From a virus, in the IMG/VR virus record IMGVR_UViG_3300034072_000926, positions 41,621-105,620 of that record: a stretch of 64,000 nt of DNA, one strand, 5' to 3'. A program made the translations under genes and the position numbers. Of the stretch, positions 1 through 15,127 are shown one piece after another. The notes beneath the pieces were generated by a model. That model saw only the letters and a program-made list of their open reading frames with translations, ran no database searches and was not told the origin of the DNA. Every line of letters starts with the position of its first letter. The first letter of the stretch is position 1.

Positions 1-135
1 ATCCACTTCCAATGGGCGAACGCTTCATGACGCGATTTGACAAGAGTCGCTATGAGGATAAGCCCGAGGACAAGAACATCTACTTCTCACCGCAGACGAC
101 TCCGATCTGGAACTACCTGTGCGGCTAAGTTGAAA

Positions 136-648
136 TCACTTAGCTCTAAGGGCACTTCTTTTCTGTCTCGAAGGGGAGTGCCTTTTTTGTGACTTTTTGA
201 TTTGCGAAGCCGCTTGCTTCTTTCGAAGCTGCATTACCTTACAATCAGGCGCATACTTTTCTCGCAGTTCCCATATTGCAGCCTTGATCGCTTTGATTGA
301 AGCAGGGGTCGAAACATAGCATTCAGTATAGCCCGAAAATCTAACTGATGGCGTGTAGCGAAACTGTTTCAATTTCGCGTGAAGTTCTTGTTCCACGTCA
401 AATAGAAGCTTCCTGCTTTCTAGTTTCTGACTGGTCATCAGACTGAAATCGTATCGTTCAACAAACGCATCAGGAAACTTCGTAAATCTCTCCACGATTT
501 TATCCTGACTGGTCATGCCAATCTTTATGAATTTCTCCACGACATAATTGAATGGAATCTCCTTGGACTCTTTCTTATAGGAGGCTTTGGATTTGGTTTT
601 CACTCGATAGACATATAGTCGGTGAGTTCTGATTGGATTATTTGACAT
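136..648 (-). CDS. T5orf172-like (GIY-YIG-related) domain protein
   Basis: ORF track 170 aa; pattern LYVYRV...KIGMTS...RF.....EQELH..L.....P.....GYTECY resembles the T5orf172/MUG113 domain; basic C-terminus. Confidence 0.4.
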   Translation of the reverse strand: MSNNPIRTHRLYVYRVKTKSKASYKKESKEIPFNYVVEKFIKIGMTSQDKIVERFTKFPDAFVERYDFSLMTSQKLESRKLLFDVEQELHAKLKQFRYTPSVRFSGYTECYVSTPASIKAIKAAIWELREKYAPDCKVMQLRKKQAASQIKKSQKRHSPSRQKRSALRAK

Positions 649-1190
649 ATAATAAGACCGGAATGAACGAACTTGTGAGCGAATGTATGACTTGCAGTAG
701 GCATGAAAGCCACACCTTTATCCCCCGCTACAATAGATAGACATTAAAAATCTATATTGTAGTGAGGGAATCAGTGTCTTGCAGTTAGAGGCTGTCAGAG
801 CACACCTTGAAACTGACACCATGTAAGCATGGCACCGGGGTCACGTTGTCGGTCTTAGGTCAGGAATCCTGGAATAGTGGCGGCGTCCTACCAGTCACAT
901 TTCAAGTTGCAATTGGTAGGCAGAAAGGTGGTCGGAGTGGACCAGAGCTTTCATCCTTGGGCTACTTGCGTTGTTTATACTGGCGCCAGACGTAACCTTT
1001 TCAACTCTTTGCAGAGGAGGCCGCCACCCATGGGATGGTTCCTCACCATCCCTGATCTTCCAGTTTGCGCCTAGCCGCTACCATTCCGTCTTCTTCCGGA
1101 CAAGGTTGAGATAACACTAGGTTGTCGTGTGCCTATTTAAAGGCTTGTCATTTTGGATAACGTACCGGACAACCCAGAGTCAATTACTCT

Positions 1191-1943
1191 TTACTTGTTG
1201 TTTGTATAGGGGGCCACTTTCCGAGCAAAGTCGGCGAAGTTTTTCATCTCCTTGACATTGAACGGGAGACGATAGATAGCGAGGGCTGCTCGTATCCCCA
1301 TCACCGCTAGTTCGATATCAAGCGTTCCGAGCCACGTTATGAATCGGTCGCCCTGCTCATAAAAGATGATATTCGGCTTGCCGTATTTCTCGAGCGTTGC
1401 TTTGAGACCCTCGCACACTTCCTTGATAACACGACAGTTCTCTTCAAAGGTGTCCGCAGGACCCCGTGCTTGCCCGCTCAGAACAAGATCACCTGTTAGC
1501 TGTCCGCTGTCGAGATCAAGGTCAAGTTCTTCTATGAGGGCTTCTACATGCTCCTCATAGGTTGTGCCATCGAGGTAGACAGTTGGCCAATGATAAGCCG
1601 TTATGTCCTTTGCAAAATGGACCGTGTATCCAGCTTTACCGCTGAAGATTCGTTCCTCGAGATGTGCGAGACGAACAGTAGTCTTATCATCGGCAAGCAC
1701 TTCAAAGCCGCAATAGCGACGCAAATACTGCCACGCATAGACTTGCATGTCGAGATGCAGGCCGCCGATCCACAGAGCGAGGTTGTTGATACCGTCCTTG
1801 ATGGCTTCGGGATTGCGTTTCCCATCAAGGTCATAGAAAATAATTGAGGCTTGGTGAATCAGTTCCATCTGAAAATCAGGATGGAACGTCTCTTCTGGCC
1901 ATTTGCCATCAAGAATCTGTTGGGCTATCTCTCGATTAGTCAT
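1191..1943 (-). CDS. hypothetical protein (250 aa)
   Basis: long ORF in same-strand gene block; no motif I can place. Confidence 0.45.
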   Translation of the reverse strand: MTNREIAQQILDGKWPEETFHPDFQMELIHQASIIFYDLDGKRNPEAIKDGINNLALWIGGLHLDMQVYAWQYLRRYCGFEVLADDKTTVRLAHLEERIFSGKAGYTVHFAKDITAYHWPTVYLDGTTYEEHVEALIEELDLDLDSGQLTGDLVLSGQARGPADTFEENCRVIKEVCEGLKATLEKYGKPNIIFYEQGDRFITWLGTLDIELAVMGIRAALAIYRLPFNVKEMKNFADFARKVAPYTNNK

Positions 1944-2151
1944 AAGAAACCTCCTGTGCTACCTTTGCTTGTAACACAGGAGGTCTGTTTGTCAACCCAT
2001 TGTAGTGAATTCCATGCCGTGCCTTGTGCCGACATATGGGCGTCGCACATCAGTGCGATGCATATTCAATACAATATCAGTTCCCTTCAGTGCGACCCGA
2101 AGGCTCTTGTCTGATTTTCGGAGAATGTCTGCTTCTATCGTTTTGCCCGTA

Positions 2152-2535
2152 TCAGTCGAGCTTACTGAGCAGGTCTCCGAACATTGCTGTCGTGTCATCT
2201 TCGTTCACCGGTTCCGTATAACCGAGAGTCATACGAAGCATGTCCATGAACACGCTGCGATCCGACTTCTCACCCATCGACCGATCTAACATGCCTTGCA
2301 CCACGTATGCAAGAATTTGGTAATCACTCTTGACCTGATCGCAGCCAAAATTGATTCCATTCGCCGCGAGCATCGTATGCATCTGCTGATGGATGCTGAC
2401 CTGTGGATTGGAAACCTTACGGAAGTCGTTCAGACGAACTACCTTGTCCTCAGTGTTTCCATCGTTTGAGTTAGCAACCTCTCCTTTGTTGTCGTCGCTG
2501 TTCATGATGCGACTTTCCAAACGAATAACATTCAT
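2152..2535 (-). CDS. hypothetical protein (127 aa)
   Basis: ORF track; acidic N-terminus; no recognisable motif. Confidence 0.35.
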   Translation of the reverse strand: MNVIRLESRIMNSDDNKGEVANSNDGNTEDKVVRLNDFRKVSNPQVSIHQQMHTMLAANGINFGCDQVKSDYQILAYVVQGMLDRSMGEKSDRSVFMDMLRMTLGYTEPVNEDDTTAMFGDLLSKLD

Positions 2536-2779
2536 AAGACACGCGGTCCCCCTTCACGCATTTCGACACGGATTTTGCTGGAGCGACCCGGCTTAAACCC
2601 ACAGCGCCAACACCCTCTCAAAAGCGTCTTTGCTGTAAAGGGTAAGCTATGTGTTCACACCTTACACGTCAAGCGGAATATGTAGCAGTAGTGTTGCAAA
2701 ACCGTTGAATTTCTGCAACACAGTCTAATAAACCATTGATAGAACAATGGAATATTTTCAAACAACCGTTAATTATTTT

Positions 2780-2824
2780 GAACAAAAAGGGTTAACAGGG
2801 TCCTTTAGAAACACCTGTTAACCC
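2780..2824 (-). terminator. rho-independent terminator after IF-3 gene
   Basis: perfect 11-bp inverted repeat GGGTTAACAGG(2789-2799)/CCTGTTAACCC(2814-2824); on minus strand followed by TTTTTGTT. Confidence 0.55.
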
Positions 2825-2879
2825 TTGGGGTTGTATGAAACTATAGATTCCTTGCCCGAGCAAGTAAATCTTAGTTAAT

Positions 2880-3410
2880 TTACGTAGTTTTCTTTGCCGC
2901 CGGCGCAACAATCGCAAAGAGCTGTCGCTCACTGCGGGCAACCGGGCGCTCAAACTTGAAATCTGTGAGGAATCCCAAGAAATCATTCATCACGCTGGCA
3001 CCAACATCCAAGTGCGTGATTTCACGGCCCTTGAACTTGATGATGATCTTGACCTTGTCGCCTTCATCCAGGAAACCCTGTGCGCGCTTGGCCTTGACCT
3101 TGAGGTCATTCATGTCTGTGGTAGGGCGAAGCTGAATCTCTTTCAGTTCAACCCTCGACTCCCTGGACTTCTTGGCAGCTTCCTTTGCACGACGACTCTC
3201 GTCATACTTGAACTTGCCATAATCCAGGATTTTGCAGACTGGCATACCGTTAGCCATATTGATAGCTACGAGATCCAGGCCTACCTGACGGGCCCGGTTT
3301 CGAGCGTCGATCAGTGAAACTACACCAATCTGCTCACCAGTGTCAGCAATGAGACGTACTTCTTTTGCGCGGATCTGATCATTCACCGCATACTTAAAAT
3401 TCACAGACAA
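2880..3410 (-). CDS. infC: translation initiation factor IF-3 homolog
   Basis: 176 aa; alignable over full length with bacterial IF3 (IRAKEVRLI..GEQIGVVSL..A...A...GLDLV.I......PVCKILDYGKFKY...R.......KE..KEIQLRP.TD..D..VK......FL.EGDKVKI...F.GRE..H...G..V); both N and C domains present. Confidence 0.88.
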   Translation of the reverse strand: MSVNFKYAVNDQIRAKEVRLIADTGEQIGVVSLIDARNRARQVGLDLVAINMANGMPVCKILDYGKFKYDESRRAKEAAKKSRESRVELKEIQLRPTTDMNDLKVKAKRAQGFLDEGDKVKIIIKFKGREITHLDVGASVMNDFLGFLTDFKFERPVARSERQLFAIVAPAAKKTT

Positions 3411-3432
3411 TCTTTCCCTTTCATGTAATAAG

Positions 3433-3453
3433 TGGACACTACATTGTGTCCAC
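3433..3453. other. intergenic hairpin between clpX and infC
   Basis: GTGGACAC-tacatt-GTGTCCAC perfect 8-bp stem. Confidence 0.3.
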
Positions 3454-3467
3454 TCACTAAGTCAACA

Positions 3468-4718
3468 TCAAGCTACTTTTGGGTTCTCGAAAACCACAAC
3501 AGGCTCTGCTGTTCCTTCAATGACATCCTTCGTTACTCGGATGGTAACTGCGCCTTGATCCTTCAGATCAGGTAGGTCATATTGGACCTGGATGAGACGC
3601 TTCTCAATAACGCTCCTCAGACCACGCGCACCAGTCTTACGGGTAATAGCGTCGACCGCGACAGCCTTGAGTGCTTCGTCGTCAAATTCAAGCGAGATGT
3701 TCTCAAGCTGGAACATCTTAGAGAACTGCTTCACAAGTGCATTCTTTGGTTCAGTGAGAACACGAACCAACTGCTCCTGGTCTAGCTCTTCCAAGCTAGT
3801 GATAACCGGAAGACGACCCACTAGCTCTGGAATCAAACCGAACTTCTGAAGATCTTCTGGCTCTACGCTATTAAGCAATTTGCTTGAGACCTTGCTGTTG
3901 TCTCCCTTAACGGAAGCACCAAAGCCGATGCTACCCTTGCCCTTGTTCATACGCTTGCCGATGATTTCATCCAAGCCCACGAATGCACCGCCAACAATGA
4001 ACAGGATGTTCTTCGTATTCACTACGGCCATCTCTGCATTTGGATGCTTACGGTTACCCTGTAGGGGCACACGAACTTCACTACCCTCGATAATCTTCAG
4101 CAAAGCTTGCTGAACACCCTCGCCTGACACGTCGCGGCTAATGGACGCGCTATCACCCCTACGGGCTTTCTTATCTACTTCGTCGAGGTAGATAATACCA
4201 CGCTCGGCCTTCGCCACATCATTATCGCATACCTGGAGCAAGCGAGAGATGATGGTCTCAACGTCATCACCCACATAACCAGCCTCAGTCAGCGAAGTCG
4301 CGTCAGCAATTGTGAATGGAACGTCGAGCAACTTCGCGATGCTCTTGGCCATGAGGGTCTTACCAGAACCGGTTGGGCCGAGCAGAAGGATGTTGGACTT
4401 TTCAAGCTCAACATCGTCAACCACAGGATTGGCTAGACGCTTGTAGTGATTATGAACCGCAACTGCCATGACCATCTTGGCATCATTTTGACCAATCACA
4501 TACTGGTCAAGAAACTCTCGGATTTGACGAGGGCTAGGAATCTCACCATCTTTGAGAGACATCTTGGTCTCTGCATTAGTGTCTTCCTTGAGGATGTCAG
4601 CACAAAGCTGGACACAGTCATTGCAGATAAAAACATCAGGTCCAGCAATCAGCTTCTGGACATGTTCTTGCTTCTTTCCGCAGAAGCTGCACGTTAGGGA
4701 CTTTTTGTTCTCGCTCAT
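3468..4718 (-). CDS. clpX: ATP-dependent Clp protease ATP-binding subunit ClpX
   Basis: 416 aa; N-terminal C4 zinc finger CSFCGK..CNDC; Walker A LLLGPTGSGKTLMA; full-length ClpX-like (IGF-loop region, sensor motifs). Confidence 0.9.
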   Translation of the reverse strand: MSENKKSLTCSFCGKKQEHVQKLIAGPDVFICNDCVQLCADILKEDTNAETKMSLKDGEIPSPRQIREFLDQYVIGQNDAKMVMAVAVHNHYKRLANPVVDDVELEKSNILLLGPTGSGKTLMAKSIAKLLDVPFTIADATSLTEAGYVGDDVETIISRLLQVCDNDVAKAERGIIYLDEVDKKARRGDSASISRDVSGEGVQQALLKIIEGSEVRVPLQGNRKHPNAEMAVVNTKNILFIVGGAFVGLDEIIGKRMNKGKGSIGFGASVKGDNSKVSSKLLNSVEPEDLQKFGLIPELVGRLPVITSLEELDQEQLVRVLTEPKNALVKQFSKMFQLENISLEFDDEALKAVAVDAITRKTGARGLRSVIEKRLIQVQYDLPDLKDQGAVTIRVTKDVIEGTAEPVVVFENPKVA

Positions 4719-4827
4719 ACCGACCTCGAGTATTCAGGTTTACCTGATATTTAGTTTTGTCGATCAAGGGCACTCGAGGGTAAATCCGGAGGACACCTTA
4801 TTGTATGTCCTCCGGAACTAGATTGCA

Positions 4828-6183
4828 TTATAAACCTGGTCGAACCTGTCGCATACTTTCTACGACCTGCACAATGTCGTTGACAATATCTGGATTCATC
4901 TCCAGTAACTCGATGATTAGATCCTTCGGAGTCCTTGGATCATCCTCAAGAGCCTGTGGTTCAACCTGTTCTGGCTTCCAGGCATTGATAGCGTTCTGCT
5001 GAACAGTTAACTGATCTTCCCACTGTTTTAGTAGCTCGCGCTCATCGTTCAAGCGAGCTTCCATAAGGAGCAATTCCTTATGGGCATTCTCGAGAACATC
5101 CTGGTCGATTGCTAAAATAGCACGGGCTTCGTCGAGTTCACTCTGATCTTTAGCTGATGCTTTCAATTGAGCAATCTCAGCCGTCAATGCTTCAACATCG
5201 AAATCGTCTTTCTCAACTGATTCCTCTTCGAGTTTAAGCTTCGTGTAAATTGGCTTGTAGTCTTCATCCAATTCAAGGAGTTGACCATCTATTGGCTTAA
5301 TAGTCACAGGTGCTTCTTCAACAGACCCGGTATGAGGATAGTTGATCTTATTGAGATCCATTTCATCTTCCTTGATCTGTTCAAGAATCTCCTGAACTGG
5401 AACCAAGGGTTCTGGAATCACAACTGCCTCGACCTTAACAGCTTTGGCCTTATCCTCTTTACGCTTCTGAAGTGAGATGCTACCCATGATGAACATCGCA
5501 ATAGCAAGAGGATCGAACGCAGCCATGATGAGCGAGATAATGATCCTGATTGCCTTCTGAGGATCCATGCCCAGAGCTTCGGCGATGAACTTTGCAACAC
5601 CGAGTTCTCCCTCAACATCACCGGTCTTCATCTTCAGAGGCACGAGCTTCTGAGTGATATCGTTGATTGTTGAGTTGTTAGCGTCAATGGTCTTCTGAAT
5701 CTCAGCAGCTTCTTTTTTCGATTGGTTCGAAGCACGGAGACCCGCACGAGCATTGCCTTCTAGGACTTTATCGGTGATCTTGCTGATCTGTCCCAAACGG
5801 GATTCAAGACGGACGTTCTCGTCTTGCTTCTGTTTCAGTTGGGTCTCGAGTTGAGCAACCTGAATACCAAGGCCAGCTAGTGGCGCCTGTTGTTCAAGAT
5901 GACCCTTACTCAGATAGCCATACACGCCGAGGCTTGTGATGGCCATAAGACATGCAACAAAGAAACAGAGTAGGCCGCGGAAATACCAAGGAGCCGCAGG
6001 GTTTCTCCAGTTGGCGTGAATCCACTTGGCGGTCACAATCTTGCCGACCTCAAGTGATGCGCCCATGATGACCACACCCCAGAAGGTAGCCGCAAAGATG
6101 CTGCCTAGACCTACTAGGGAGAAGTATGCCGCTACAGCAGAGATTGCAGCCGCGACGAAAAAGATGAGAATGATGAATGCCAT
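4828..6183 (-). CDS. membrane protein with long coiled-coil region
   Basis: 451 aa; two N-terminal hydrophobic segments plus a C-terminal TM; central heptad-like Q/E/K-rich region. Confidence 0.5.
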   Translation of the reverse strand: MAFIILIFFVAAAISAVAAYFSLVGLGSIFAATFWGVVIMGASLEVGKIVTAKWIHANWRNPAAPWYFRGLLCFFVACLMAITSLGVYGYLSKGHLEQQAPLAGLGIQVAQLETQLKQKQDENVRLESRLGQISKITDKVLEGNARAGLRASNQSKKEAAEIQKTIDANNSTINDITQKLVPLKMKTGDVEGELGVAKFIAEALGMDPQKAIRIIISLIMAAFDPLAIAMFIMGSISLQKRKEDKAKAVKVEAVVIPEPLVPVQEILEQIKEDEMDLNKINYPHTGSVEEAPVTIKPIDGQLLELDEDYKPIYTKLKLEEESVEKDDFDVEALTAEIAQLKASAKDQSELDEARAILAIDQDVLENAHKELLLMEARLNDERELLKQWEDQLTVQQNAINAWKPEQVEPQALEDDPRTPKDLIIELLEMNPDIVNDIVQVVESMRQVRPGL

Positions 6184-6264
6184 ATGTTGCCTCTAGGGTT
6201 CTAATCGGATATACAGACTGCCAAAGCAGACAGTCTACTTATCTCTAACTAGAACCCCGAGGTT

Positions 6265-6687
6265 TTAGGCGAACAAAGCCTTGAGCTTCTGCCAGAACGA
6301 CAGCTTAGGCTGTGGGGTAAGATCCGTCAGACCATTATAGCGATCCAGGAACTTCCACGAGATGTTCTTAGCACCGAAAGCCTTGAGAGCCTCAAATGCC
6401 ATGTTGGGGTCGAGATCGCTACAGGTGTAGATATCGAACTCGATGAAGGGCTGATCACATTCGTCCCACGTATGAAGAATCATATGAGACGTTGTGATAT
6501 AGACCCCGGCCGTCATGCCACGGTTACCAACTTGTTCGCAATATTCCGCAGAAGCCTCTTTCAAGACTTCCATGTCCATTGCGTGGACGATGTCGGTGAG
6601 CCACTGTTCGACGAAACGTTCGTCCTTCTTCAGCGGCGGATTGTCCACATGAGCGTGGACGATAAGGTGCTTGTGAAGCTTAGCCAT
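6265..6687 (-). CDS. speH: S-adenosylmethionine decarboxylase proenzyme (SpeH/archaeal-type AdoMetDC)
   Basis: 140 aa; GKHLIV.AH motif at N-terminus and TSHMILHTW-E....IEFDIYTC core typical of pyruvoyl AdoMetDC. Confidence 0.65.
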   Translation of the reverse strand: MAKLHKHLIVHAHVDNPPLKKDERFVEQWLTDIVHAMDMEVLKEASAEYCEQVGNRGMTAGVYITTSHMILHTWDECDQPFIEFDIYTCSDLDPNMAFEALKAFGAKNISWKFLDRYNGLTDLTPQPKLSFWQKLKALFA

Positions 6688-6772
6688 ATCAACTCCTAAT
6701 CAAAGATCGCGCTTTGCGAATAGCGTGTCTCAGGAAGATTAGGAGATCCGCTTCTTCCTTCGTTTCACCTGG

Positions 6773-7186
6773 TCAGAAAAACTTTGCCGTAGCGGTGATA
6801 TTTATCGGATTAGGCAATTTAGCCCAACCACCCCGCAGCAGGTCGTTGGAATTGACGGGCTTGAAACCCGCCTCGCGATCCAGCGACCAAGTGCAATGAT
6901 ATGTTTGACCATCCGGACGGACAGTCGATCCATCGACTTCTACGACTAAGCACTCAATACCTGCATCATTGCAGGCATATCCCACTACACGGAAGGTATC
7001 AGCTTCTGGCAGAGGTTGATCGGACTTCGCACCACGCTTGAAGGTAATGTGATGTCCGATAAACTCAGGAAACTTCGGAGGGAACGTCTGAGCCAACTGC
7101 GATCGACTCGACGCGTCCAATGCGAAGGCCATATAACCTCCCTTTGGCTTGCCGATGACCTCACTTGCTTTCAATGTTTCCTCCAA
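6773..7186 (-). CDS. 2H phosphoesterase superfamily protein (LigT/Acb1-like)
   Basis: 137 aa; two H-x-T-x motifs (HHITF and YHCTW) about 50 aa apart, size matches small phage 2H enzymes. Confidence 0.45.
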   Translation of the reverse strand: MEETLKASEVIGKPKGGYMAFALDASSRSQLAQTFPPKFPEFIGHHITFKRGAKSDQPLPEADTFRVVGYACNDAGIECLVVEVDGSTVRPDGQTYHCTWSLDREAGFKPVNSNDLLRGGWAKLPNPINITATAKFF

Positions 7187-7273
7187 AGCTGAGCTGCTCT
7201 TATGTGTATTTTCTCCTGCTCTGTCAATATCGTTTTACCAATCCGATAAATTAACCTGTATCCAATGTGAAAA

Positions 7274-7302
7274 TTGACACTTTGGGTTCCTAAAACATAT
7301 TG
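7274..7302 (+). promoter_or_regulatory. possible sigma70-like promoter upstream of topo II large subunit
   Basis: TTGACA(7274-7279) with 17-nt spacer to CATATT; weak -10. Confidence 0.25.
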
Positions 7303-7326
7303 TCAAACAAAGAACAAGGGTTAACC

Positions 7327-9198
7327 ATGTCCAACAACATTAAGAAACTAACAGATTACCAACACGCTCGCTTGAGGACAGAGATGTATCTGGGTTCGAG
7401 GTCACTCCATACTCAGAACGTCCTGCAATTCGTAGATGGCAAGCCACAGCCTGTTGAGACATCTTGGGTGCCTGCATTATATACAGCATTCCGTGAAGTT
7501 CTCGACAACGCACTCGATGAAGTAGTGGGTCACGGCCACGGCAGTCGCATTGATGTCACATATGATCCTAAGACTCGCGAGGTCAGTGTTCAGGACGATG
7601 GTCGTGGTATCCCTATCGCTTATGATGAATCGCATAAGTGTCACCTCGCAACGCTGGTTATGACTGAAGCTCGTGCTGGTCGTAACTTTGAAGAGCGCGG
7701 CGAAGTCGCGGGAACTAACGGTATCGGTGCATCGGTTGTGAACTTCTGCTCCGAATTTTTCCGTCTTGACATCCATAAGGATGGCGAAAGGTTCCAGCAG
7801 GAATTCACACAGGGTAATGCAGTCTTTGGTGACGAACTACAGGTCGGAAAGCCGAAGATTGTAAAGAAGCAGAATAAGAACGGAACAAAGATCACGTTCA
7901 AGCTGAGCGATGAAGTCTTCCCTGACTTGACTCTCCCTGAGGAGTTCATTCGTTCGCGCGTAACTGAGGTTGCAATCTGCAATCCATTGATCAAGATCTT
8001 CTACAATGGAGAACAGGTCAAGGTCAAGCCGCGACCTGAACAGAGCCTCTTCCCTGGCTTGAAGCCAATGGCCCTAGAAGTGAAGGAAGATACCTTCCGT
8101 AGCCGCTTCTGGATTGTGCCCAATTGGGTCAAGGACGGCGAGCATGTTCATACGATTGTTAACAATATTCCTGCCTTTAACGGCGGTGTTCACATTGATA
8201 TTTTCCGTCGTCTCTTTTATGGCAACCTGATCACGGCTCTAGAGAAGGAAAGCAAGCGTCGCAAGCTGACTCCTAACCGCTCAGATGTTACTGAAGGTGT
8301 TCTGATCTACAACATCACGAACATGAGGGCTCCGAACTTCGATAGTCAGTCCAAGACACGACTGATCAATGAAGAAGTTGGTAAGATCATCAAAAGCCAG
8401 CTAGAAGATCCTGAACTCTACAAGGAGTTCATTAAGAAGAACCGAGAGTGGATTGAGGAAATCTACAAGCGTTGTGCAGAACGCACAATGAAGAAAGACC
8501 TCGGTGATCTCGCGAAGGCTGCAAAGAAGAATCTCCGCACCAAGGTTCCTGGACTGATGGATGCTATTGCGACTGATCGCACATCTTGCATTCTCTTCCT
8601 CGCAGAAGGTGACTCGGCAATTTCGGGTATGAGCTCTGTTCGTAATCCTGAAATCCATGGTGGTCTTGCGCTTTCGGGTAAGGTGCTCAACGTCAATGGC
8701 GAAATGCCTAAGAAGGTCGTCGAGAACAAGGCTCTCGGTGAGATCATGAGCAGCATTGGTTTGGTCGTTGGACAGAAGGCCCATCGCGGTGCTCTGCGCT
8801 ATGGCCAGGTATATGTCGCACATGACATGGATCCCGACGGTCTAAACATCGGTGCGCTTCTGATCAACTTCTTCCACACTTACTGGCCTGAGTTGTTTGC
8901 TGATCCAAAGAACCCGTTTGTTCATATCTTCCGCACCCCGTTCATCATTGCTGAAAAGGGTAAAGCTCGCAAATACTGGTATGCTCATAACTACCAGGAC
9001 TTCAAGCCAGAAGATTACAGCGGTTGGTCGATCACCCGTGCAAAGGGTCTCGGAACTCTCACCCGTGCCGATTGGGAATACTCTCTGAAGAACCCAGAAG
9101 TCTACCCAATTGTGGATGATGGCAAGATGGGTGAGACTTTGGACCTGATCTTCAACGGCAAGCGTTCGGACGATCGCAAGACCTGGATTGGCCTATAA
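7327..9198 (+). CDS. DNA topoisomerase II large subunit (T4 gp39+gp60 fused type, GyrB-like)
   Basis: GHKL ATPase N-terminus (NALDEV, GHGHG, DDGRGIP), TOPRIM (LFLAEGDSA, DMDPDG); probable ATG at 7327 with AAGGG RBS (track starts at TTG 7300). Confidence 0.88.
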   Translation: MSNNIKKLTDYQHARLRTEMYLGSRSLHTQNVLQFVDGKPQPVETSWVPALYTAFREVLDNALDEVVGHGHGSRIDVTYDPKTREVSVQDDGRGIPIAYDESHKCHLATLVMTEARAGRNFEERGEVAGTNGIGASVVNFCSEFFRLDIHKDGERFQQEFTQGNAVFGDELQVGKPKIVKKQNKNGTKITFKLSDEVFPDLTLPEEFIRSRVTEVAICNPLIKIFYNGEQVKVKPRPEQSLFPGLKPMALEVKEDTFRSRFWIVPNWVKDGEHVHTIVNNIPAFNGGVHIDIFRRLFYGNLITALEKESKRRKLTPNRSDVTEGVLIYNITNMRAPNFDSQSKTRLINEEVGKIIKSQLEDPELYKEFIKKNREWIEEIYKRCAERTMKKDLGDLAKAAKKNLRTKVPGLMDAIATDRTSCILFLAEGDSAISGMSSVRNPEIHGGLALSGKVLNVNGEMPKKVVENKALGEIMSSIGLVVGQKAHRGALRYGQVYVAHDMDPDGLNIGALLINFFHTYWPELFADPKNPFVHIFRTPFIIAEKGKARKYWYAHNYQDFKPEDYSGWSITRAKGLGTLTRADWEYSLKNPEVYPIVDDGKMGETLDLIFNGKRSDDRKTWIGL

Positions 9199-9530
9199 TG
9201 ACAGATAACTCTCAGATTAGTCCAGATACTTTCTGGAAAGACGAAGAGGGCATCGAGGAACATTACTGTAATGTCTATGTGGCAATTGACAAGGTCAAGA
9301 GCTCGACCGTTTGGTATGAAGACCTCGACGATAACGTCATCGAATGGCTGAATACAAACGCCGGCAATCGGAGAGCCCACGGTCTTGAATGGTATCAGAA
9401 TCTCGAGTTAGACCGATATGATTGGTCGGTTCGAGGCACTGTCAGGTATAAGGGACAGAGCTGTATCCAGATCTTGATCAAGGATAAGCGAGCTGCAATG
9501 ATGTTCAAGCTGTCATGGGGCGGTTTGTGA
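9198..9530 (+). CDS. FKLxWGG-tail paralog family member
   Basis: 110 aa; C-terminus RAAMMFKLSWGGL; TAATG stop/start overlap with topo II gene. Confidence 0.6.
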   Translation: MTDNSQISPDTFWKDEEGIEEHYCNVYVAIDKVKSSTVWYEDLDDNVIEWLNTNAGNRRAHGLEWYQNLELDRYDWSVRGTVRYKGQSCIQILIKDKRAAMMFKLSWGGL

Positions 9531-9778
9531 ACGTTCAGTGTCGTAACTTCATAAAGAGTAACGATGGTAACAAATTTCTCGGGTGTGTCACAACTGATGC
9601 ACCCGAGACGTTCAAGCTTTGGCTCGCAATGGCTTGTCCTACAAGCCAGCAAGTTCTTATATTTGAACGCAATGATGGAGCCATACGAGAAGAGGGCGGC
9701 TATCGTTGGAGGCTCAATATCGTCCTGAATGATCGGAAAGAAGCCCTTATGTTCAAGCTTCGTTGGTATGGCGCATGA
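9515..9778 (+). CDS. FKLxWGG-tail paralog family member
   Basis: 87 aa; C-terminus EALMFKLRWYGA; overlaps previous stop (ATG 9515 or GTG overlapping TGA). Confidence 0.55.
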   Translation: MGRFVNVQCRNFIKSNDGNKFLGCVTTDAPETFKLWLAMACPTSQQVLIFERNDGAIREEGGYRWRLNIVLNDRKEALMFKLRWYGA

Positions 9779-10047
9779 GCTTCTCTAACTGGTATGCTGT
9801 CTGGTATGAGCCAGAACCCGATGACATTATGGCCTACATCTCTATGGAGAAAATTGCCGTCATAGGCGGTGCCGAAAACAATGGAACCTATGAGGCTTTC
9901 CAGATCAATCAGGGTAATGCCATCCTGTCTAAGTGGTGTAGAGTAAATTGCAAATCGCCGGGCAAACCTGTAAATGTGCGTGGTGAACCTGCGTGGGCCT
10001 TTAAGGACGCCCAAGATGCTTTGCTGTTCAAACTAACTTGGGGTTAA
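9763..10047 (+). CDS. FKLxWGG-tail paralog family member
   Basis: 94 aa; C-terminus DALLFKLTWG. Confidence 0.55.
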   Translation: MVWRMSFSNWYAVWYEPEPDDIMAYISMEKIAVIGGAENNGTYEAFQINQGNAILSKWCRVNCKSPGKPVNVRGEPAWAFKDAQDALLFKLTWG

Positions 10048-10048
10048 G

Positions 10049-10453
10049 ATGTACCACGGCAACAAACAATTCGACCTAGAGACAACAGCTAAATTCTGGC
10101 TACTTCAGATTCGTGGCATTCGTATCAGCTATTATGGCAAGGAAGGCTATTCTGCGATCGATTGGTGTACGGCAAATGTAAAGGGTCATTGGGGTTGGAA
10201 CCATGAACCTGAACTGATCAAAAATAGTGATATCGTTAAGAACATTGACTATCATTTCACTGGCATCTGGCCCAAGGCCGAAGAAGATGATGAAACCAGA
10301 ATGATGAACGCTATGGCTCGTCAATTACAGCAAGACATAGATGATGAAATTTTAGAGAAACTCGGGGTAAAGAGGATTCGTCCCTCAGGTTATTTCTGGT
10401 TCGATAACAATGACGACGCAATGCTGTTCAAGCTGACCTGGGGTGGTGAATGA
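10049..10453 (+). CDS. FKLxWGG-tail paralog family member
   Basis: 134 aa; C-terminus DAMLFKLTWGGE; starts 1 nt after previous stop. Confidence 0.6.
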   Translation: MYHGNKQFDLETTAKFWLLQIRGIRISYYGKEGYSAIDWCTANVKGHWGWNHEPELIKNSDIVKNIDYHFTGIWPKAEEDDETRMMNAMARQLQQDIDDEILEKLGVKRIRPSGYFWFDNNDDAMLFKLTWGGE

Positions 10454-10740
10454 AGGATTACGATTTCGTCACAGTTTATCTCCCCTATGTTGGTGCAGTT
10501 GCCCGTGGAGAGTATAGCCACTTGATCTCTGAGGAAGTGGTTGCATGGCTCAATGAACACGTAGGCAACGGCACCGTTTCATATCGTCACTGGTTGCTCA
10601 ACTACGACAATGACACCTACCAGTGGACCTATAAGGGAACTGATTACTCCTCTGAATCTCATCATACAAAGATAGTCAGAGCATTCTGCTTCAAAGACAT
10701 AGACAAAGCCAGCCTATTCAAATTGGTATGGGGTGGATAA
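10450..10740 (+). CDS. FKLxWGG-tail paralog family member
   Basis: 96 aa; C-terminus KASLFKLVWGG; ATGA overlap with previous gene. Confidence 0.6.
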   Translation: MKDYDFVTVYLPYVGAVARGEYSHLISEEVVAWLNEHVGNGTVSYRHWLLNYDNDTYQWTYKGTDYSSESHHTKIVRAFCFKDIDKASLFKLVWGG

Positions 10741-11186
10741 GTAGATTTATGCAATCTACTCGTGCCAAATATCTAACAGAATATCGTGCTTTACGAAATG
10801 CAATTCACCGTTGTCATAACAGCAAGAATAAGCAATATAAAGACTATGGCGGACGAGGTATAACCGTCTTTGATGAATGGCATACTGATTTTGACGCATT
10901 TATAAAACATATAGGACCTAAGCCTAGTCCTGATTTGACCTTAGAACGTATAGATAATGATAAGGGATATGAGCCTAATAATGTTACATGGGCGACTAGG
11001 TCTGAGCAGCAATACAACAGAAGATCACATAGTTCAGCGGCCCGAATTACAATCAACGGGCAATCTTATACCTTGAATGAATGGTCAAAGATAAGTGGAA
11101 TAAATGCCACTACTTTACGATCAAGATTAAATAAAGGTGTAAGCCAATCTGAATTACTAAATCCAGTTGGTAAAACTGGAGTTTAG
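10728..11186 (+). CDS. HNH/AP2-type homing endonuclease-like protein
   Basis: YGGRGI motif, LERIDNDKGYEPNNVTWATRSEQ motif, C-terminal helix-turn-helix-like tail (NEWSKISGI..TLRSRL); start probably ATG 10749 just after previous stop. Confidence 0.55.
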   Translation: MGWISRFMQSTRAKYLTEYRALRNAIHRCHNSKNKQYKDYGGRGITVFDEWHTDFDAFIKHIGPKPSPDLTLERIDNDKGYEPNNVTWATRSEQQYNRRSHSSAARITINGQSYTLNEWSKISGINATTLRSRLNKGVSQSELLNPVGKTGV

Positions 11187-11187
11187 A

Positions 11188-11484
11188 ATGAAAGTAGCAT
11201 ATAACTTCCTACCTGATTACCAATTCCCTCATTGGATAGATCACAGCACAACACCTGCTAGTGACAACCTCACTCACTTCATGAATGTCAACGAATGGTG
11301 CGGCAAGCAATTCGGGGACCTTGGTGTGAATTGGGGTTATGAGCGCAAGACTGATACCTCATCTGCGCCGAACGGGATGAACCCTGTCAGGGTGCGTCTG
11401 CATTATACCACAATTCATTACAGCTGGCGTTTCAAGAACAAGGAAGATGCTGCTTTGTTCAAACTCACGTGGGGTGGCGCGTGA
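11188..11484 (+). CDS. FKLxWGG-tail paralog family member
   Basis: C-terminus DAALFKLTWGGA; ATG 11188 preceded by GGAG, TAGAATG junction with endonuclease gene (track start 11167). Confidence 0.55.
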   Translation: MKVAYNFLPDYQFPHWIDHSTTPASDNLTHFMNVNEWCGKQFGDLGVNWGYERKTDTSSAPNGMNPVRVRLHYTTIHYSWRFKNKEDAALFKLTWGGA

Positions 11485-11783
11485 AGCTTACAGAATACGA
11501 AACAGTCTCGATCTATGTTCCAGAGAGTCGACGACTAGGCTCGGGTAGCGGACAGAGCTTTAAGCTCAACCCTGACCTTATTGAATGGGCTGATATGATG
11601 TACGGCTACAAGGCTCCCGACATGACTTACTTCGTTGCCAACCTTGACAATGATGCTTATGGTTGGGCGCATGGTGGTATGGCAGCTAGTCCTAATCCTC
11701 TCGATAATCGCCTCTATCGCAAGTTCATGTTCAAGAAGGAATCTGATGCCTTGATGTTCAAATTGACATGGGGTGGCAATTGA
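11481..11783 (+). CDS. FKLxWGG-tail paralog family member
   Basis: C-terminus DALMFKLTWGGN; GTG start overlapping TGA of previous (GTGA). Confidence 0.55.
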   Translation: MKLTEYETVSIYVPESRRLGSGSGQSFKLNPDLIEWADMMYGYKAPDMTYFVANLDNDAYGWAHGGMAASPNPLDNRLYRKFMFKKESDALMFKLTWGGN

Positions 11784-12064
11784 GTGGATATCAGATCAGG
11801 TTCAATATCGAGGACATCTACGAGATTCAAGAACATTTCGGCTTAACGTGGGAATGTCTGACCGTCGGAATGCGTCGAGAGCATGAAAAGGAATGGATAT
11901 TAAATCTCACCAGAGTTATTGACGCGTTAACTCAATGGTGTAAGGATAACGGTATAAGGCAATACTGGTTTGGCTACACTCAGATCGAATTGTGCGTAAC
12001 CTTTCAAGAGAAGAAGGACGCGATGCTATTCAAGTTGAGGTGGCATAATGGTAAGAGAAGTTGA
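11768..12064 (+). CDS. FKLxWGG-tail paralog family member (divergent tail)
   Basis: 98 aa; C-terminus DAMLFKLRWHNGKRS. Confidence 0.5.
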   Translation: MGWQLSGYQIRFNIEDIYEIQEHFGLTWECLTVGMRREHEKEWILNLTRVIDALTQWCKDNGIRQYWFGYTQIELCVTFQEKKDAMLFKLRWHNGKRS

Positions 12065-13771: not shown

Positions 13772-15127
13772 ATGACCCAAAATAGCTCAAATTATATCCT
13801 AGACACATCTCGCGAATATTCTATCTACGTATGTGAATCCCGTGCAATTCCTAAGGTCACAGACGGCCTAAAGGATGCTCAGCGCAAAGCGCTCTGGCTC
13901 GTTAAGAGCAAAGCCGAAAAGATCAAGACCGTATCGTTGGCTGGTGAAATGATCTCCAGCGGACTATATCTGCACGGCGACGCATCTGCCGCCGGTGCTA
14001 TCTCGATGTTGGCTGCACCCTATGTCAATAACGTCCCGCTCCTTGATGGTATTGGTTCGTTTGGCACTCGTGTTGCGCCCGTTGATGGCATTGGTGCTCC
14101 TCGCTATACCTATGTGAAGCGTGGTAAGGCTGCGCTAGAACTCATGTTCCCAGACATGGACATCGTCCCCGTAAAGGAGAACTACGATGGATCTACCATC
14201 GAGCCTCAGCATTTTCTTCCACTTATTCCCACGGTTCTGCTCAACGGAGTCAGTGGCATCGCTGTTGGTTGGAGTACTGAAATTCTACCCCGTAGCTTCA
14301 AGAGCCTCATTGATGCTACCATAGCAATTCTTGATGGGAAGACGATCAAGCGTATCCCTCCCAGCTACGAACTCTACAATGTTGGTGTGAAGCACCTTGA
14401 GGAGAACTCTTGGGAGTTCACTGGTAAGTTGGAGATCGTTGATACCTCGACGATCAAGATCACTGAGCTACCTCCTGAACTGACCCTTGAGAAGTTCAAG
14501 GAACGACTCAATACATATGAGGACGAGAACCGAATCTCGACCTATACCGACCGTTCCACTGACACCATCGACATCACGATCAAGATGGCACGTGGCACTG
14601 TTAAGGGCTGGTCGGAATCTCGCGCAATCGAATACTTCAAGCTGAAGCAGAAGAAGAGCGAGCGTATTGTTGTCATCGACTGGAACAACACATCTATCCG
14701 TCAGTATGAGAACGCTGAACAGCTAGTCAAGGACTTTGTTGCTTGGCGTTTGGAATGGTATAAGACCCGCTACGAACACAAGCTGACCAAGGATGATTAC
14801 GAGCTTGGTTTCTGGAAAGGTGTTAAGGCTTGCTTCGATGACAAGCTTCCTGCTCGTTTGGGTTCGATCAAGAGTCGTGCTGATCTAGATGCTGATGTTC
14901 GTGTGGTTGCAGAAGCCAAGAAGGTCATCTTGGATGACAAGCGTATTGATCGCATTGTCAACTTGCCAGCACATCGTTGGACCAAAGATGCTTACGCAGA
15001 TGTGTTGGCTAAGATCAAGGAACTCGAAGCTAACATCAAGGATTACAAGGCCATTTTGAAGGACCCTGAGAGGCGCAAGTCGATCTATAGGGAAGAGCTA
15101 GAAACTCTCAAGAAGGTTAAGTTCTAA
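13772..15127 (+). CDS. DNA topoisomerase II medium subunit (T4 gp52-like, GyrA-like)
   Basis: 451 aa; N-terminal RAIPKVTDGLKDAQRKALW motif of type IIA topoisomerase A subunits; catalytic Tyr region. Confidence 0.85.
   Translation: MTQNSSNYILDTSREYSIYVCESRAIPKVTDGLKDAQRKALWLVKSKAEKIKTVSLAGEMISSGLYLHGDASAAGAISMLAAPYVNNVPLLDGIGSFGTRVAPVDGIGAPRYTYVKRGKAALELMFPDMDIVPVKENYDGSTIEPQHFLPLIPTVLLNGVSGIAVGWSTEILPRSFKSLIDATIAILDGKTIKRIPPSYELYNVGVKHLEENSWEFTGKLEIVDTSTIKITELPPELTLEKFKERLNTYEDENRISTYTDRSTDTIDITIKMARGTVKGWSESRAIEYFKLKQKKSERIVVIDWNNTSIRQYENAEQLVKDFVAWRLEWYKTRYEHKLTKDDYELGFWKGVKACFDDKLPARLGSIKSRADLDADVRVVAEAKKVILDDKRIDRIVNLPAHRWTKDAYADVLAKIKELEANIKDYKAILKDPERRKSIYREELETLKKVKF

What the first reader, a model, noticed from the sequence alone, without database searches (positions are those of the whole stretch)
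2880..3410. Full-length translation initiation factor IF-3 homolog in a phage
The 176-aa product aligns with bacterial InfC across both the N domain and the C domain (start-codon and initiator-tRNA discrimination), with high identity in the core motifs. Phage-encoded initiation factors are rare. A phage IF3 could bias start-site selection, which matters here because the genome visibly uses many GTG/TTG and overlapping starts, or it could replace host IF3 during takeover.
Basis: partly seen in the sequence, partly recalled or inferred. Interest (0 to 1): 0.6.

Follow-up and report, generated by a model that had tools for sequence, protein, structure and literature searches.

The report
Jumbo-phage copy of initiation factor IF3
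The window really does carry a complete, well-conserved copy of the bacterial translation initiation factor IF3 inside a huge (~465 kb) phage genome, but this gene is already annotated and discussed in the related Agrobacterium and Sinorhizobium jumbo phages, so it is a new example of a known and still untested phage feature.

Summary
Observation confirmed. An ORF at 2880-3410 on the minus strand encodes a two-domain IF3: IF3_N plus IF3_C, with a TIGR00168 infC score of 174 bits against a cutoff of 60. The AlphaFold model superposes on 30S-bound IF3 (TM 0.81). The real start is probably the conserved GTG at 3404, giving 174 aa, not the TTG at 3410.

The window is a T4-like jumbo phage. The exact protein sits on a 465 kb JGI contig. 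The gene order topo II / AdoMet decarboxylase / ClpX / IF3 recurs in Atu_ph07 (gp001-005), Phosso, AP-J-162 and 460-640 kb metagenomic contigs.

The gene is under strong purifying selection (dN/dS about 0.07-0.09). It has no close bacterial donor; the best bacterial matches are 40-50% identical and come from many phyla. It belongs to a phage-type subfamily with a linker two residues longer and mostly K at E. coli position R131. It lacks the bacterial AUU/AUC start and the infC-rpmI-rplT operon context.

Most residues linked to 30S binding and fidelity are kept, so the decoy reading is not favoured.

Phage IF3 has already been reported (Al-Shayeb 2020, Iyer 2021, the AP-J-162 paper).

Verdict: a new member of a known kind, with modest interest.

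The parts
2880..3404 (-). IF3 (infC-like) coding sequence. 174 aa from the conserved GTG at 3404..3402, with the stop TAA at 2882..2880. The N domain is about residues 7-76 and the C domain about residues 85-168 (174-aa numbering). They are joined by a Lys/Arg-rich linker helix.
   Evidence: GTG start. AF2 model pLDDT 84.7 with a linker helix at 62-82. Foldseek 5lmn_X TM 0.81/0.84.
3405..3410 (-). They are probably 5' UTR, not coding.
   Evidence: The TTG is CTG in L002-L004. It lies only about 2-4 nt after the SD-like element.
3415..3420 (-). Shine-Dalgarno-like AAGGGA, 10 nt upstream of the GTG. The geometry matches the AAGGAG found 9-10 nt upstream of the GTG in Phosso and Atu_ph07.
   Evidence: Sequence read. 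Relatives.
3426..3459 (-). 14-bp hairpin in the 63-nt spacer between the clpX stop and the IF3 start. It could be a weak terminator, an attenuator or a processing site. It is not followed by a proper U-tract, so read-through from clpX is likely.
   Evidence: centroid -20.5 kcal/mol, z = -2.76.
2780..2826 (-). Strong hairpin (perfect 13-bp lower stem plus upper stem) followed by UUUUUGUU. It is a probable intrinsic terminator 55-100 nt after the IF3 stop. A second hairpin lies at 2839-2876.
   Evidence: region MFE -36.1 kcal/mol, z = -5.63, 0 of 200 shuffles as stable. The simple terminator scan missed it.
3468..4718 (-). ClpX-like AAA+ unfoldase (zf-C4_ClpX + AAA_2 + ClpB_D2-small) immediately upstream on the same strand. 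It is a conserved neighbour of IF3 in this phage lineage.
   Evidence: Adjacency in L001-L004, L006, Phosso and Atu_ph07 (Phosso and Atu_ph07 annotations), the 90%-identical P0002 relative, L094 and L095.
7300..9198 (+). T4 gp39-type topoisomerase II large subunit, divergently oriented. It is part of the conserved topo II / AdoMet_dc / ClpX / IF3 block that identifies the lineage.

Best explanation
The gene encodes a functional phage-borne orthologue of bacterial IF3. It has been vertically inherited for a long time within the Atu_ph07/Phosso/AP-J-162-like (Polybotosvirus-like) jumbo phages.

Shown here:
- complete two-domain architecture and fold;
- retention of most residues tied to 30S binding and fidelity;
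- strong purifying selection;
- conserved position next to clpX;
- a GTG start, and no bacterial operon context.

Inferred mechanism:
- The protein is made from a clpX-IF3 transcript that ends at the downstream terminator.
- It binds the host 30S platform and P-site region through its C domain and contacts initiator tRNA through its N domain.
- It carries out the canonical IF3 activities: subunit anti-association and recycling, faster and proofread start-codon/initiator-tRNA selection.
- This supplements or replaces host IF3, so that a large pool of initiation-competent 30S subunits is maintained during a long, protein-expensive jumbo-phage infection.

Because its start is GTG rather than the AUU/AUC typical of bacterial infC, its synthesis should escape IF3 autoregulation. 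An active phage IF3 would, by the same logic, repress host infC translation, so the phage factor could progressively take over. This last step is inference from the established AUU-based autoregulation of infC.

IF3 sits within a wider phage translation toolkit. The window carries a tmRNA, a tRNA-Thr, a CCA-adding enzyme and an L7/L12-like ORF. Relatives carry S21 a few kb downstream of IF3.
For: Homology and architecture:
-.
- AF2 pLDDT 84.7.
- Foldseek top full-length hits are all IF3 on 30S subunits. 5lmn_X gives TM 0.81/0.84 and rmsd 2.4 A over 167 columns.

Residues, in E. coli numbering:
- Y75, K72, F73, R99, D106, K110, G132, R133, E134, H137 and R168 are identical.
- R112K, R129K and R131K are conservative changes.
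- K at position 131 also occurs in the bona fide IF3 of PDB chain 5me0_Y, motif RFKGR.

Selection:
- dN/dS is 0.071 (window vs L001) and 0.086 (L003 vs L004). All unsaturated pairs are at or below 0.14.

Lineage conservation:
- About 70 metagenomic homologues are at least 55% identical, many on 434-481 kb contigs.
- ClpX-IF3 adjacency is seen in 10 independent relatives. These include cultured Atu_ph07 and Phosso and a 639 kb contig.

Not a recent host capture:
- The best of 571 GTDB bacterial matches are only 40-50% identical over the full length (up to 55% over shorter partial alignments) and are spread over Myxococcota, Actinomycetota, Bacillota, Alphaproteobacteria and Planctomycetota.
- L20 lies 92-666 nt downstream of infC in 42 of 68 bacterial loci but is absent from all phage loci.

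Start codon:
- GTG in 7 of 7 lineage members.
- ATT/ATC after GGAGG is visible in many bacterial loci.

Toolkit: and S21.
Against: - No functional data exist for any phage IF3. The Sharanji paper says so explicitly.
- Several C-domain positions differ from E. coli: K97Q, Y107L, R116G, R147D. All of these also vary among the 80 bacterial IF3s sampled. For example, position 107 is L or I in 55 of 80, and position 116 is G in 9 of 80.
- The phage-type subfamily has systematic peculiarities that could mean altered rather than canonical activity. The linker is 2 residues longer in 116 of 120 homologues against 0 of 80 bacteria. K131 occurs in 104 of 122 phage-type sequences against R in 80 of 80 bacteria.
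- The host is unknown, so compatibility with its ribosome cannot be assessed.
- The 'escape from autoregulation / takeover' step is pure inference.
Confidence: 0.65

Rival explanations
1. Retuned specificity factor. The phage-type IF3 binds 30S subunits but has altered proofreading. Discrimination of start codon, initiator tRNA or leaderless mRNA would be relaxed or shifted, or high factor concentrations would be tolerated. Initiation would then be biased toward phage mRNAs.
For: Subfamily-wide changes lie exactly in the 129-RFRGR-133 motif. The phage forms are KFKGR or RFKGR. K131 occurs in 104 of 122 phage-type sequences, against R131 in 80 of 80 bacteria.

PMC11775629 reports three relevant points:
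- R131 contacts the +4 mRNA base.
- R131P relaxes fidelity.
- Replacing RFRGR by the mitochondrial KKGK motif relaxes start-codon discrimination and removes the inhibition of leaderless mRNAs.

The linker is 2 residues longer in the whole subfamily. Linker shortening is reported to perturb start-site decoding (PMC8266586).
Against: - R to K is conservative.
- RFKGR occurs naturally in the IF3 of PDB chain 5me0_Y.
- Position 129 is freely variable in bacteria (M, Q, L).
- Start-codon usage in the window looks ordinary.
- No leaderless or unusual initiation signals were looked for or seen.
Confidence: 0.2
2. Ribosome-rescue or anti-shutdown role. The factor mainly acts in ribosome recycling, in splitting hibernating or stalled ribosomes, or in countering host defences that disable translation. 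It would work alongside the phage tmRNA. It would not act in start selection.
For: [quoted passage not shown]
- The window encodes a full alpha-type tmRNA and a CCA-adding enzyme.
- IF3's anti-association activity is part of its canonical function (PMC8266586).
Against: - This is not distinguishable from the main explanation with sequence data.
- IF3 and the tmRNA are 34 kb apart, so there is no operon link.
- The N domain, which is needed for initiator tRNA selection, is as well conserved as the C domain: 51.6% against 38.1% identity to E. coli.
Confidence: 0.1
3. Decoy or inhibitor. The protein occupies the IF3 site on host 30S subunits non-productively to shut off host translation.
For: The only support is the generic precedent of phage proteins that target host ribosomes early in infection (cited).
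Against: - Both domains and the key functional residues are under purifying selection.
- A decoy would also block phage translation, because phage mRNAs here use ordinary SD-led starts.
- The C-domain binding residues are not lost.
Confidence: 0.03
4. Passenger gene or artefact. The gene is a recently captured host gene with no adaptive role, or it is bacterial DNA mis-assembled into a phage contig.
For: Some 'phage' records that match IF3 in INPHARED are short, unannotated fragments and are probably host DNA (for example 2-7 kb records).
Against: - Conserved synteny with phage genes occurs in cultured, complete genomes.
- dN/dS is about 0.07-0.09.
- There is no bacterial relative above about 50% full-length identity.
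- There is no rpmI/rplT downstream.
- The GC content of the gene (50.5%) matches that of the window (48.9%).
Confidence: 0.02

Closest known systems
IF3 of Agrobacterium phage Atu_ph07 (gp001, YP_009611666.1), Sinorhizobium phage Phosso (XYS97678.1) and Sinorhizobium phage AP-J-162 (gp547)
   Same: - Same gene in the same place. ClpX lies immediately upstream and divergent T4-type topoisomerase II lies beyond it. S21 and L7/L12-like genes are nearby.
- GTG-AAT start.
- Linker 2 residues longer than in bacteria.
- K at E. coli position 131.
- Genomes of about 465-490 kb.

   Different: - Only 48% (Phosso) and 43% (Atu_ph07) protein identity.
- No nucleotide-level match to any deposited phage.
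- The window belongs to a separate, so far uncultured branch whose members are 72-90% identical to it (L001-L004, L094).
- The motif is KFKGR here and RFKGR in the cultured phages.
Bacterial InfC / IF3 (TIGR00168; E. coli IF3, PDB 8jsg, 5lmn)
   Same: - Two-domain architecture, fold, length and a Lys-rich linker.
- Conserved DYGKF-Y, KEI-(F/L)RP, GDKVK and F-GRE motifs.
- 41.8% identity to E. coli IF3.

   Different: - GTG start instead of the AUU/AUC autoregulatory start.
- No thrS-infC-rpmI-rplT context.
- Linker 2 residues longer.
- Substitutions K97Q, R116G, R131K and R147D.
IF3 of RaK2-like / Asteriusvirus-type jumbo phages of Enterobacteria (for example RaK2 ORF153, K64-1, Sharanji)
   Same: - Phage-encoded IF3 with the same 2-residue-longer linker.
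- It groups with the window's subfamily in an NJ tree.
- It also lies next to a Clp-system gene (a ClpS-like ORF154) and about 2 kb from gp39 topoisomerase II.
   Different: - 38% identity.
- Much more derived C domain: motif KTVGRG, with R99T, P100F, E134G and H137P.
- The neighbour is ClpS-like rather than ClpX.
IF3 genes of other huge phages (Al-Shayeb et al. 2020; IMG/VR contigs L007, L008, L010)
   Same: IF3 on 127-619 kb viral contigs. It is proposed to help redirect host translation.
   Different: These have the bacterial-type 20-residue linker and an RFRGR or QFRGR motif. They do not group with the long-linker subfamily, so they are probably independent acquisitions.

Membership tests
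Bacterial-type translation initiation factor IF3 (InfC, TIGR00168) | N-terminal IF3_N domain (PF05198) | tested here: met
   residues 9-78, model 1-70 of 70, 93.1 bits (cutoff 26.9).
Bacterial-type translation initiation factor IF3 (InfC, TIGR00168) | C-terminal IF3_C domain (PF00707) | tested here: met
   residues 87-170, model 1-85 of 86, 84 bits (cutoff 34.8).
Bacterial-type translation initiation factor IF3 (InfC, TIGR00168) | Full-length equivalog HMM score above the curated cutoff | tested here: met
   173.9 bits against 60, covering model positions 5-170 of 170.
Bacterial-type translation initiation factor IF3 (InfC, TIGR00168) | Two alpha/beta domains joined by a long basic linker helix (fold) | tested here: met
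   pLDDT 84.7, linker helix at 62-82; 5lmn_X TM 0.81/0.84. The single domains match 1tif (TMt 0.84) and 1tig (TMt 0.88). The linker is 22 residues against 20 in bacteria.
Bacterial-type translation initiation factor IF3 (InfC, TIGR00168) | Residues implicated in 30S binding and fidelity. By E. coli numbering these are Y75, R99, D106, Y107, K110, R112, R116, R129, R131, R133, R147 and R168. The list comes from mutagenesis literature recalled from memory. The RFRGR motif comes from PMC11775629. | tested here: inconclusive
- Identical at Y75, R99, D106, K110, R133 and R168.
- Conservative Lys at positions 112, 129 and 131.
- Different at 107 (L), 116 (G) and 147 (D), all of which also vary among the 80 bacterial IF3s.

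This is compatible with function, but sequence alone cannot prove binding.
Bacterial-type translation initiation factor IF3 (InfC, TIGR00168) | Atypical AUU/AUC-class start codon that mediates autoregulation | tested here: not met
   GTG start in the window and in 6 of 6 relatives of the lineage. Bacterial loci frequently show GGAGG followed by ATT/ATC. This is a regulatory feature, not a feature of the protein.
Bacterial-type translation initiation factor IF3 (InfC, TIGR00168) | thrS-infC-rpmI-rplT operon context | tested here: not met
   L20 lies 92-666 nt downstream in 42 of 68 bacterial loci. There is no L20 or L35 hit in the window or in any phage locus. Here the neighbour is clpX.
Bacterial-type translation initiation factor IF3 (InfC, TIGR00168) | 30S binding, subunit anti-association, and discrimination of initiator tRNA and start codon | not testable with these tools
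   Requires biochemistry or genetics.
Phage-type IF3 of Atu_ph07/Phosso/AP-J-162-like jumbo phages | Located directly downstream of clpX in the topo II / ClpX / IF3 block | tested here: met
   Relatives. Noted for AP-J-162 in PMC11242549.
Phage-type IF3 of Atu_ph07/Phosso/AP-J-162-like jumbo phages | Linker 2 residues longer, Q at E. coli position 97, and K at position 131 | tested here: met
   the window has a 22-residue linker, Q and KFKGRE. The long linker is present in 116 of 120 homologues and in 0 of 80 bacteria.
Phage-type IF3 of Atu_ph07/Phosso/AP-J-162-like jumbo phages | Groups with the phage-type sequences in a tree, apart from bacterial IF3 | tested here: inconclusive
   In the NJ tree the long-linker set is nearly a clade (Jaccard 0.99, with one extra sequence). 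The exact bipartition appears in only 16 of 100 bootstraps, although the mean best Jaccard is 0.98. No likelihood tree was run.
Phage-type IF3 of Atu_ph07/Phosso/AP-J-162-like jumbo phages | Resides on a genome of about 430-490 kb | tested here: met
   the identical protein P0001 is on a 465,259 bp JGI contig. Close homologues are on 462-481 kb contigs.

The most novel reading that the evidence does not exclude
The long-linker, K131, GTG-initiated 'phage-type' IF3 is an anciently acquired, specialised family. It is shared by Polybotosvirus-like and RaK2-like jumbo phages and is persistently linked to Clp-system genes (ClpX or ClpS).

On this reading it does not simply top up host IF3. It replaces it in three ways:
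- Its synthesis escapes AUU-based autoregulation.
- Its activity represses host infC.
- Its altered RFRGR motif and linker retune start-site and initiator proofreading in favour of phage messages, possibly while the adjacent ClpX removes host factors.
Probability: 0.15. Interest if true: 0.65.

Novelty: new member of a known kind. Interest (0 to 1): 0.3.

Why it matters
Phage-encoded IF3 is one of the clearest signs that huge phages reach into the initiation step of host translation, yet no phage IF3 has been tested experimentally.

This window adds an uncultured branch to the Atu_ph07/Phosso lineage. The comparison made here yields concrete, testable features:
- a conserved GTG start, which predicts escape from infC autoregulation;
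- a subfamily-specific longer linker and a K131 motif;
- a fixed ClpX-IF3 gene pair.

Cultured relatives exist (Atu_ph07, Phosso, AP-J-162), so knock-outs and ribosome profiling are feasible. That makes the general question of how jumbo phages redirect ribosomes directly approachable. The finding itself will not surprise specialists.

Tried and rejected
- Megablast of window 1-12000 against 50,697 phage records gave no hit. The phage is therefore not a deposited one.
- The exact look-up of P0001 in the contig index failed. P0002's contig had no retrievable DNA. IMG/VR loci and L094/L095 were used instead.
- The listing of cluster members gave almost no taxonomy for 10 mid-distance homologues, so no donor or host inference was possible from it.
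- The consensus promoter/terminator scan found nothing significant around the gene and missed the obvious hairpins. Folding was used instead.
- Literature searches for the E. coli IF3 arginine-scanning and Y107/K110 mutagenesis papers found nothing usable. Those residue roles therefore rest on memory and on PMC11775629.
- I considered the idea that K131 proves relaxed fidelity and downgraded it, because RFKGR occurs in the IF3 of PDB chain 5me0_Y.
- I considered the idea that Y107L marks loss of 30S binding and rejected it, because L or I is the commonest residue there among the 80 bacterial IF3s.
- Exact monophyly of the long-linker family was not robustly supported by the NJ bootstrap.
Full report
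**1. Is it there?**

Yes. The ORF listing gives an ORF at 2880..3410 on the minus strand, 176 aa from a TTG.
- It matches Pfam IF3_N (residues 9-78, E 1.2e-26) and IF3_C (87-170, E 7.1e-24), both end to end.
- It matches the NCBIfam equivalog model TIGR00168 infC at 173.9 bits against a cutoff of 60.
- It matches PHROG 9787 'translation initiation factor' at 8e-52.
- phmmer against PDB sequences aligns residues 9-173 to E. coli IF3 residues 15-179 (E 1.5e-36). It also hits the IF3 chains of 5me0 and 5lmn.
- Identity to E. coli IF3 is 41.8% overall, 51.6% in the N domain and 38.1% in the C domain.
- An AlphaFold2 model built on 55 homologues has mean pLDDT 84.7. It shows the expected N domain, long linker helix and beta-alpha-beta-alpha-beta-beta C domain.
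- The best full-length Foldseek hits are IF3 chains in 30S initiation complexes. 5lmn_X gives TM 0.81/0.84 and rmsd 2.4 A.

This is far beyond chance.

**2. Start codon**

- The TTG at 3410 is CTG in three close relatives (L002-L004).
- The GTG two codons downstream, followed by AAT, is conserved in the window, L001-L004, Phosso and Atu_ph07.
- An AAGGAG-like Shine-Dalgarno sequence lies 9-10 nt upstream of that GTG in the same loci.
- JGI's call for the identical protein is 174 aa (P0001).

I therefore place the start at 3404.

This matters for regulation. Many of the 80 bacterial infC loci fetched show GGAGG followed by an in-frame ATT or ATC. That fits the well-known AUU-dependent autoregulation of infC. 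The phage gene has an ordinary GTG.

**3. What is the window?**

It is phage-like.
- Split T4-type topoisomerase II (7300-9198 and 13772-15127), NrdA, a DnaB-like helicase, a primase and virion structural proteins.
- NrdB, homing-endonuclease-like ORFs and an Mtd_N tail-fibre-type domain.

The exact IF3 protein is on a 465,259 bp JGI contig. Close homologues (72-90% identical) lie on 462-481 kb viral contigs. Nothing in INPHARED matches at the nucleotide level.

By protein, the nearest cultured phages are Sinorhizobium phage Phosso (48%) and Agrobacterium phage Atu_ph07 (43%). Both already annotate the gene as IF-3.

**4. Context**

The block topo II large subunit / small ORFs / AdoMet decarboxylase / membrane ORF / ClpX / IF3 is collinear in all of the following:
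- the window;
- the 90%-identical relative carrying P0002;
- L001-L004;
- L094, on a 481 kb contig.

Reduced versions of the block occur elsewhere.
- Topo II / ClpX / IF3 holds in Phosso, in Atu_ph07 (gp005 to gp001) and in a 639 kb contig, L095.
- L006 shows only ClpX-IF3 adjacency; no topoisomerase hit was found there.

Ribosomal protein S21 lies 3-7 kb downstream of IF3 in relatives. In the window that position falls off the left edge.

In RaK2, IF3 sits beside a ClpS-like ORF and 2 kb from gp39 topoisomerase II.

By contrast, ribosomal protein L20 follows infC within 92-666 nt in 42 of 68 bacterial loci and is never present in the phage loci.

RNA folding shows two features:
- a 14-bp hairpin in the 63-nt clpX-IF3 spacer (z = -2.8);
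- a very stable hairpin plus U-tract 55-100 nt after the IF3 stop (region z = -5.6).

I read this as a clpX-IF3 transcript ending at 2780-2826. This is an inference.

**5. Evolution**

- Pairwise Nei-Gojobori dN/dS is 0.071 (window vs L001), 0.086 (L003 vs L004) and at most 0.14 for the other unsaturated pairs. This indicates strong purifying selection.
- A scan of one genome per GTDB species returned 571 bacterial relatives. The best are only 40-50% identical over the full length (up to 55% over shorter partial alignments). They are scattered over Myxococcota, Actinomycetota, Bacillota, Alphaproteobacteria, Planctomycetota and others. There is no recent donor.
- In an alignment of 211 sequences, 116 of the 120 best database hits have a linker two residues longer than E. 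coli IF3. So do Phosso, Atu_ph07 and RaK2. None of the 80 bacterial proteins do.
- The same set mostly has K at E. coli R131 (104 of 122), whereas all 80 bacteria have R. It mostly has Q at K97 (113 of 120).
- In an NJ tree the long-linker set is essentially one clade (Jaccard 0.99). The exact split has weak bootstrap support (16 of 100; mean Jaccard 0.98).
- Three other huge-phage IF3s from IMG/VR (L007, L008, L010) have bacterial-type linkers and motifs. They look like independent captures.

**6. Functional residues**

Using the HMMER alignment to E. coli IF3 and the larger alignments:
- Y75, K72, F73, R99, D106, K110, G132, R133, E134, H137 and R168 are identical and nearly invariant across the phage clade.
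- R112, R129 and R131 are Lys.
- Y107 is Leu, R116 is Gly, R147 is Asp and K97 is Gln.

Each non-conservative difference also occurs in the bacterial panel:
- position 107 is L or I in 55 of 80;
- position 116 is G in 9 of 80;
- position 147 is D in 18 of 80;
- position 97 is Q in 12 of 80.

It is not met.

The most suggestive difference is in the 129-RFRGR-133 motif. PMC11775629 reports the following:
- The motif contacts the start codon, with R131 at the +4 base.
- R131P relaxes fidelity.
- A mitochondrial KKGK swap relaxes start-codon discrimination and relieves inhibition of leaderless mRNA.

The window has KFKGR. However, the bona fide IF3 of PDB chain 5me0_Y has RFKGR, and position 129 is M, Q or L in many bacteria. 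The motif is therefore within the natural range at each position taken singly. I keep 'retuned fidelity' as a rival, not as the lead explanation.

**7. Mechanism proposed**

*Shown:* an intact, selected IF3 with phage-specific regulation signals and a fixed genomic partner (ClpX).

*Inferred:* it binds host 30S subunits and performs canonical IF3 functions, namely anti-association/recycling and kinetic proofreading of the start codon and initiator tRNA (functions as summarised in PMC8266586). This keeps initiation capacity high during infection.

*Further inferred:*
- With a GTG start, its synthesis is not throttled by IF3 levels.
- An active phage IF3 would repress host infC translation through the host's own AUU-based feedback, so the phage factor gradually substitutes for the host one.

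The gene belongs to a broader translation toolkit in the window:
- an alpha-type two-piece tmRNA (37060-37422, 103 bits);
- tRNA-Thr;
- a CCA-adding enzyme and a QueD/PTPS-like protein;
- an ORF with an L7/L12 C-domain match.

This mirrors what is described for AP-J-162: IF-3 gp547, L7/L12 gp556, S21 gp532 and one tmRNA (PMC11242549).

**8.

The claim that the genome 'visibly uses many GTG/TTG' starts does not hold up.
- The mechanical longest-ORF starts among 80 non-overlapping ORFs are 55 ATG, 11 GTG and 14 TTG.
- Choosing the start with the best Shine-Dalgarno sequence gives 61/13/6.
- Among those with a strong SD the counts are 35/8/1.

These proportions are ordinary for bacteria and phages. 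The method is crude, being a heuristic rather than a trained gene finder.

From established knowledge, IF3 accepts AUG, GUG and UUG on SD-led mRNAs. It rejects AUU/ACG-type codons and disfavors leaderless mRNAs. GTG/TTG usage is therefore not a specific reason to carry IF3.

**9. Novelty**

Phage IF3 is already on record.
- Al-Shayeb et al. [quoted passage not shown]
- Iyer et al. 2021 cite the Atu_ph07 protein.
- The Sharanji paper states that the function in phages is unknown.
- The AP-J-162 paper notes that clpX lies next to IF-3 and topoisomerase.
- tblastn finds IF3 in 102 of 50,697 phage records, mostly RaK2-like and Asteriusvirus-type jumbo phages.

The window's gene is thus a new, uncultured member of a known kind.

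What this analysis adds:
- the corrected start;
- the evidence for long-term purifying selection and against recent capture;
- the subfamily signature (longer linker, K131, Q97);
- the contrast with bacterial regulation (GTG start, no rpmI-rplT);
- the breadth of the IF3-Clp linkage.

**10. Verdict**

- Observation: confirmed.
- Interpretation: partly supported.
- Best explanation: a functional phage IF3 that supplements or replaces host IF3, confidence about 0.65.
- Interest: 0.3.
- Most novel reading not excluded: a specialised takeover factor that escapes autoregulation and has retuned fidelity, acting with ClpX. Probability about 0.15, interest if true about 0.65.

Noticed in passing
window 37060-37422 (-): A full-length alphaproteobacterial-type two-piece (permuted) tmRNA. 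Rfam RF01849 scores 103.1 bits (gathering 50, E 4.9e-27), and RF04321 tmRNA_permuted scores 98.9 bits. ARAGORN did not report it. It points to an alphaproteobacterial host, which fits the Agrobacterium and Sinorhizobium phage relatives. AP-J-162 is reported to have one tmRNA and Atu_ph07 none. A SegE-type GIY-YIG homing-endonuclease-like ORF (36292-37077, +) overlaps its 3' end by about 18 nt.
   Followed up: partly
window 16652-17152 (-): A 166-aa ORF with a partial match to the ribosomal protein L7/L12 C-terminal domain (PF00542, 30.5 bits against a cutoff of 25.9, model positions 11-37 of 67). It lies just beyond the topoisomerase II genes. AP-J-162 has a '50S ribosomal protein L7/L12' (gp556) close to its topoisomerase genes (gp551, gp553).
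   Followed up: partly
L013 (RaK2) 4508-5047; window 3468-4718; L011, L012, L094, L095: There is a recurrent IF3-Clp linkage. ClpX lies immediately upstream of IF3 throughout the Atu_ph07/Phosso-like lineage, including a 639 kb contig. In the distant RaK2, a ClpS-like adaptor ORF lies immediately downstream of IF3. A functional connection, for example ClpX acting on host translation factors, is unexplored.
   Followed up: partly
P0002 contig (no DNA retrieved, locus coordinates 10002-10265); L094 11500-11760; L011 14371-14522+: A ribosomal protein S21 gene lies 3-7 kb downstream of IF3 in relatives. In two of them it is followed by a weak Phage_ABA_S-domain hit. In the window this position falls just beyond the left edge.
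   Followed up: no
window 21462-22616 (-), 18498-19055 (-), 34031-34104 (-): Further tRNA-related functions are present: a CCA-adding enzyme (PolyA_pol head + tRNA_NucTran2_2), a PTPS/QueD-like protein and a tRNA-Thr(GGT).
   Followed up: no
window 136-648 (-), 22882-23667 (-), 36292-37077 (+): Three homing-endonuclease-like ORFs are present: T5orf172/PHROG 681 endonuclease, HNH, and SegE GIY-YIG. Relatives L094 and the P0002 contig carry no same-strand ORF at the position of 136-648. This suggests a mobile insertion between the IF3 block and the S21 block.
   Followed up: no
window 27996-28553 (-), 29137-30342 (-), 30348-31064 (-), 32892-33536 (-), 6265-6687 (-): A cluster of auxiliary genes that are unusual for phages: a NADAR domain (154.6 bits), TelA toxic-anion-resistance protein (270 bits), a Halogen_Hydrol/XpaC-like protein, and a YqiJ-like membrane protein. 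A pyruvoyl-type AdoMet decarboxylase lies next to the ClpX-IF3 block. Phosso has a glutathionylspermidine synthase nearby.
   Followed up: no
L013 (RaK2 IF3, 3983-4492): The RaK2-type phage IF3 is much more derived in the C domain. Its motif is KTVGRG instead of RFRGRE, and it has R99T, P100F and H137P. If any phage IF3 has changed or lost canonical 30S or start-codon contacts, this group is the better candidate than the window's protein.
   Followed up: no
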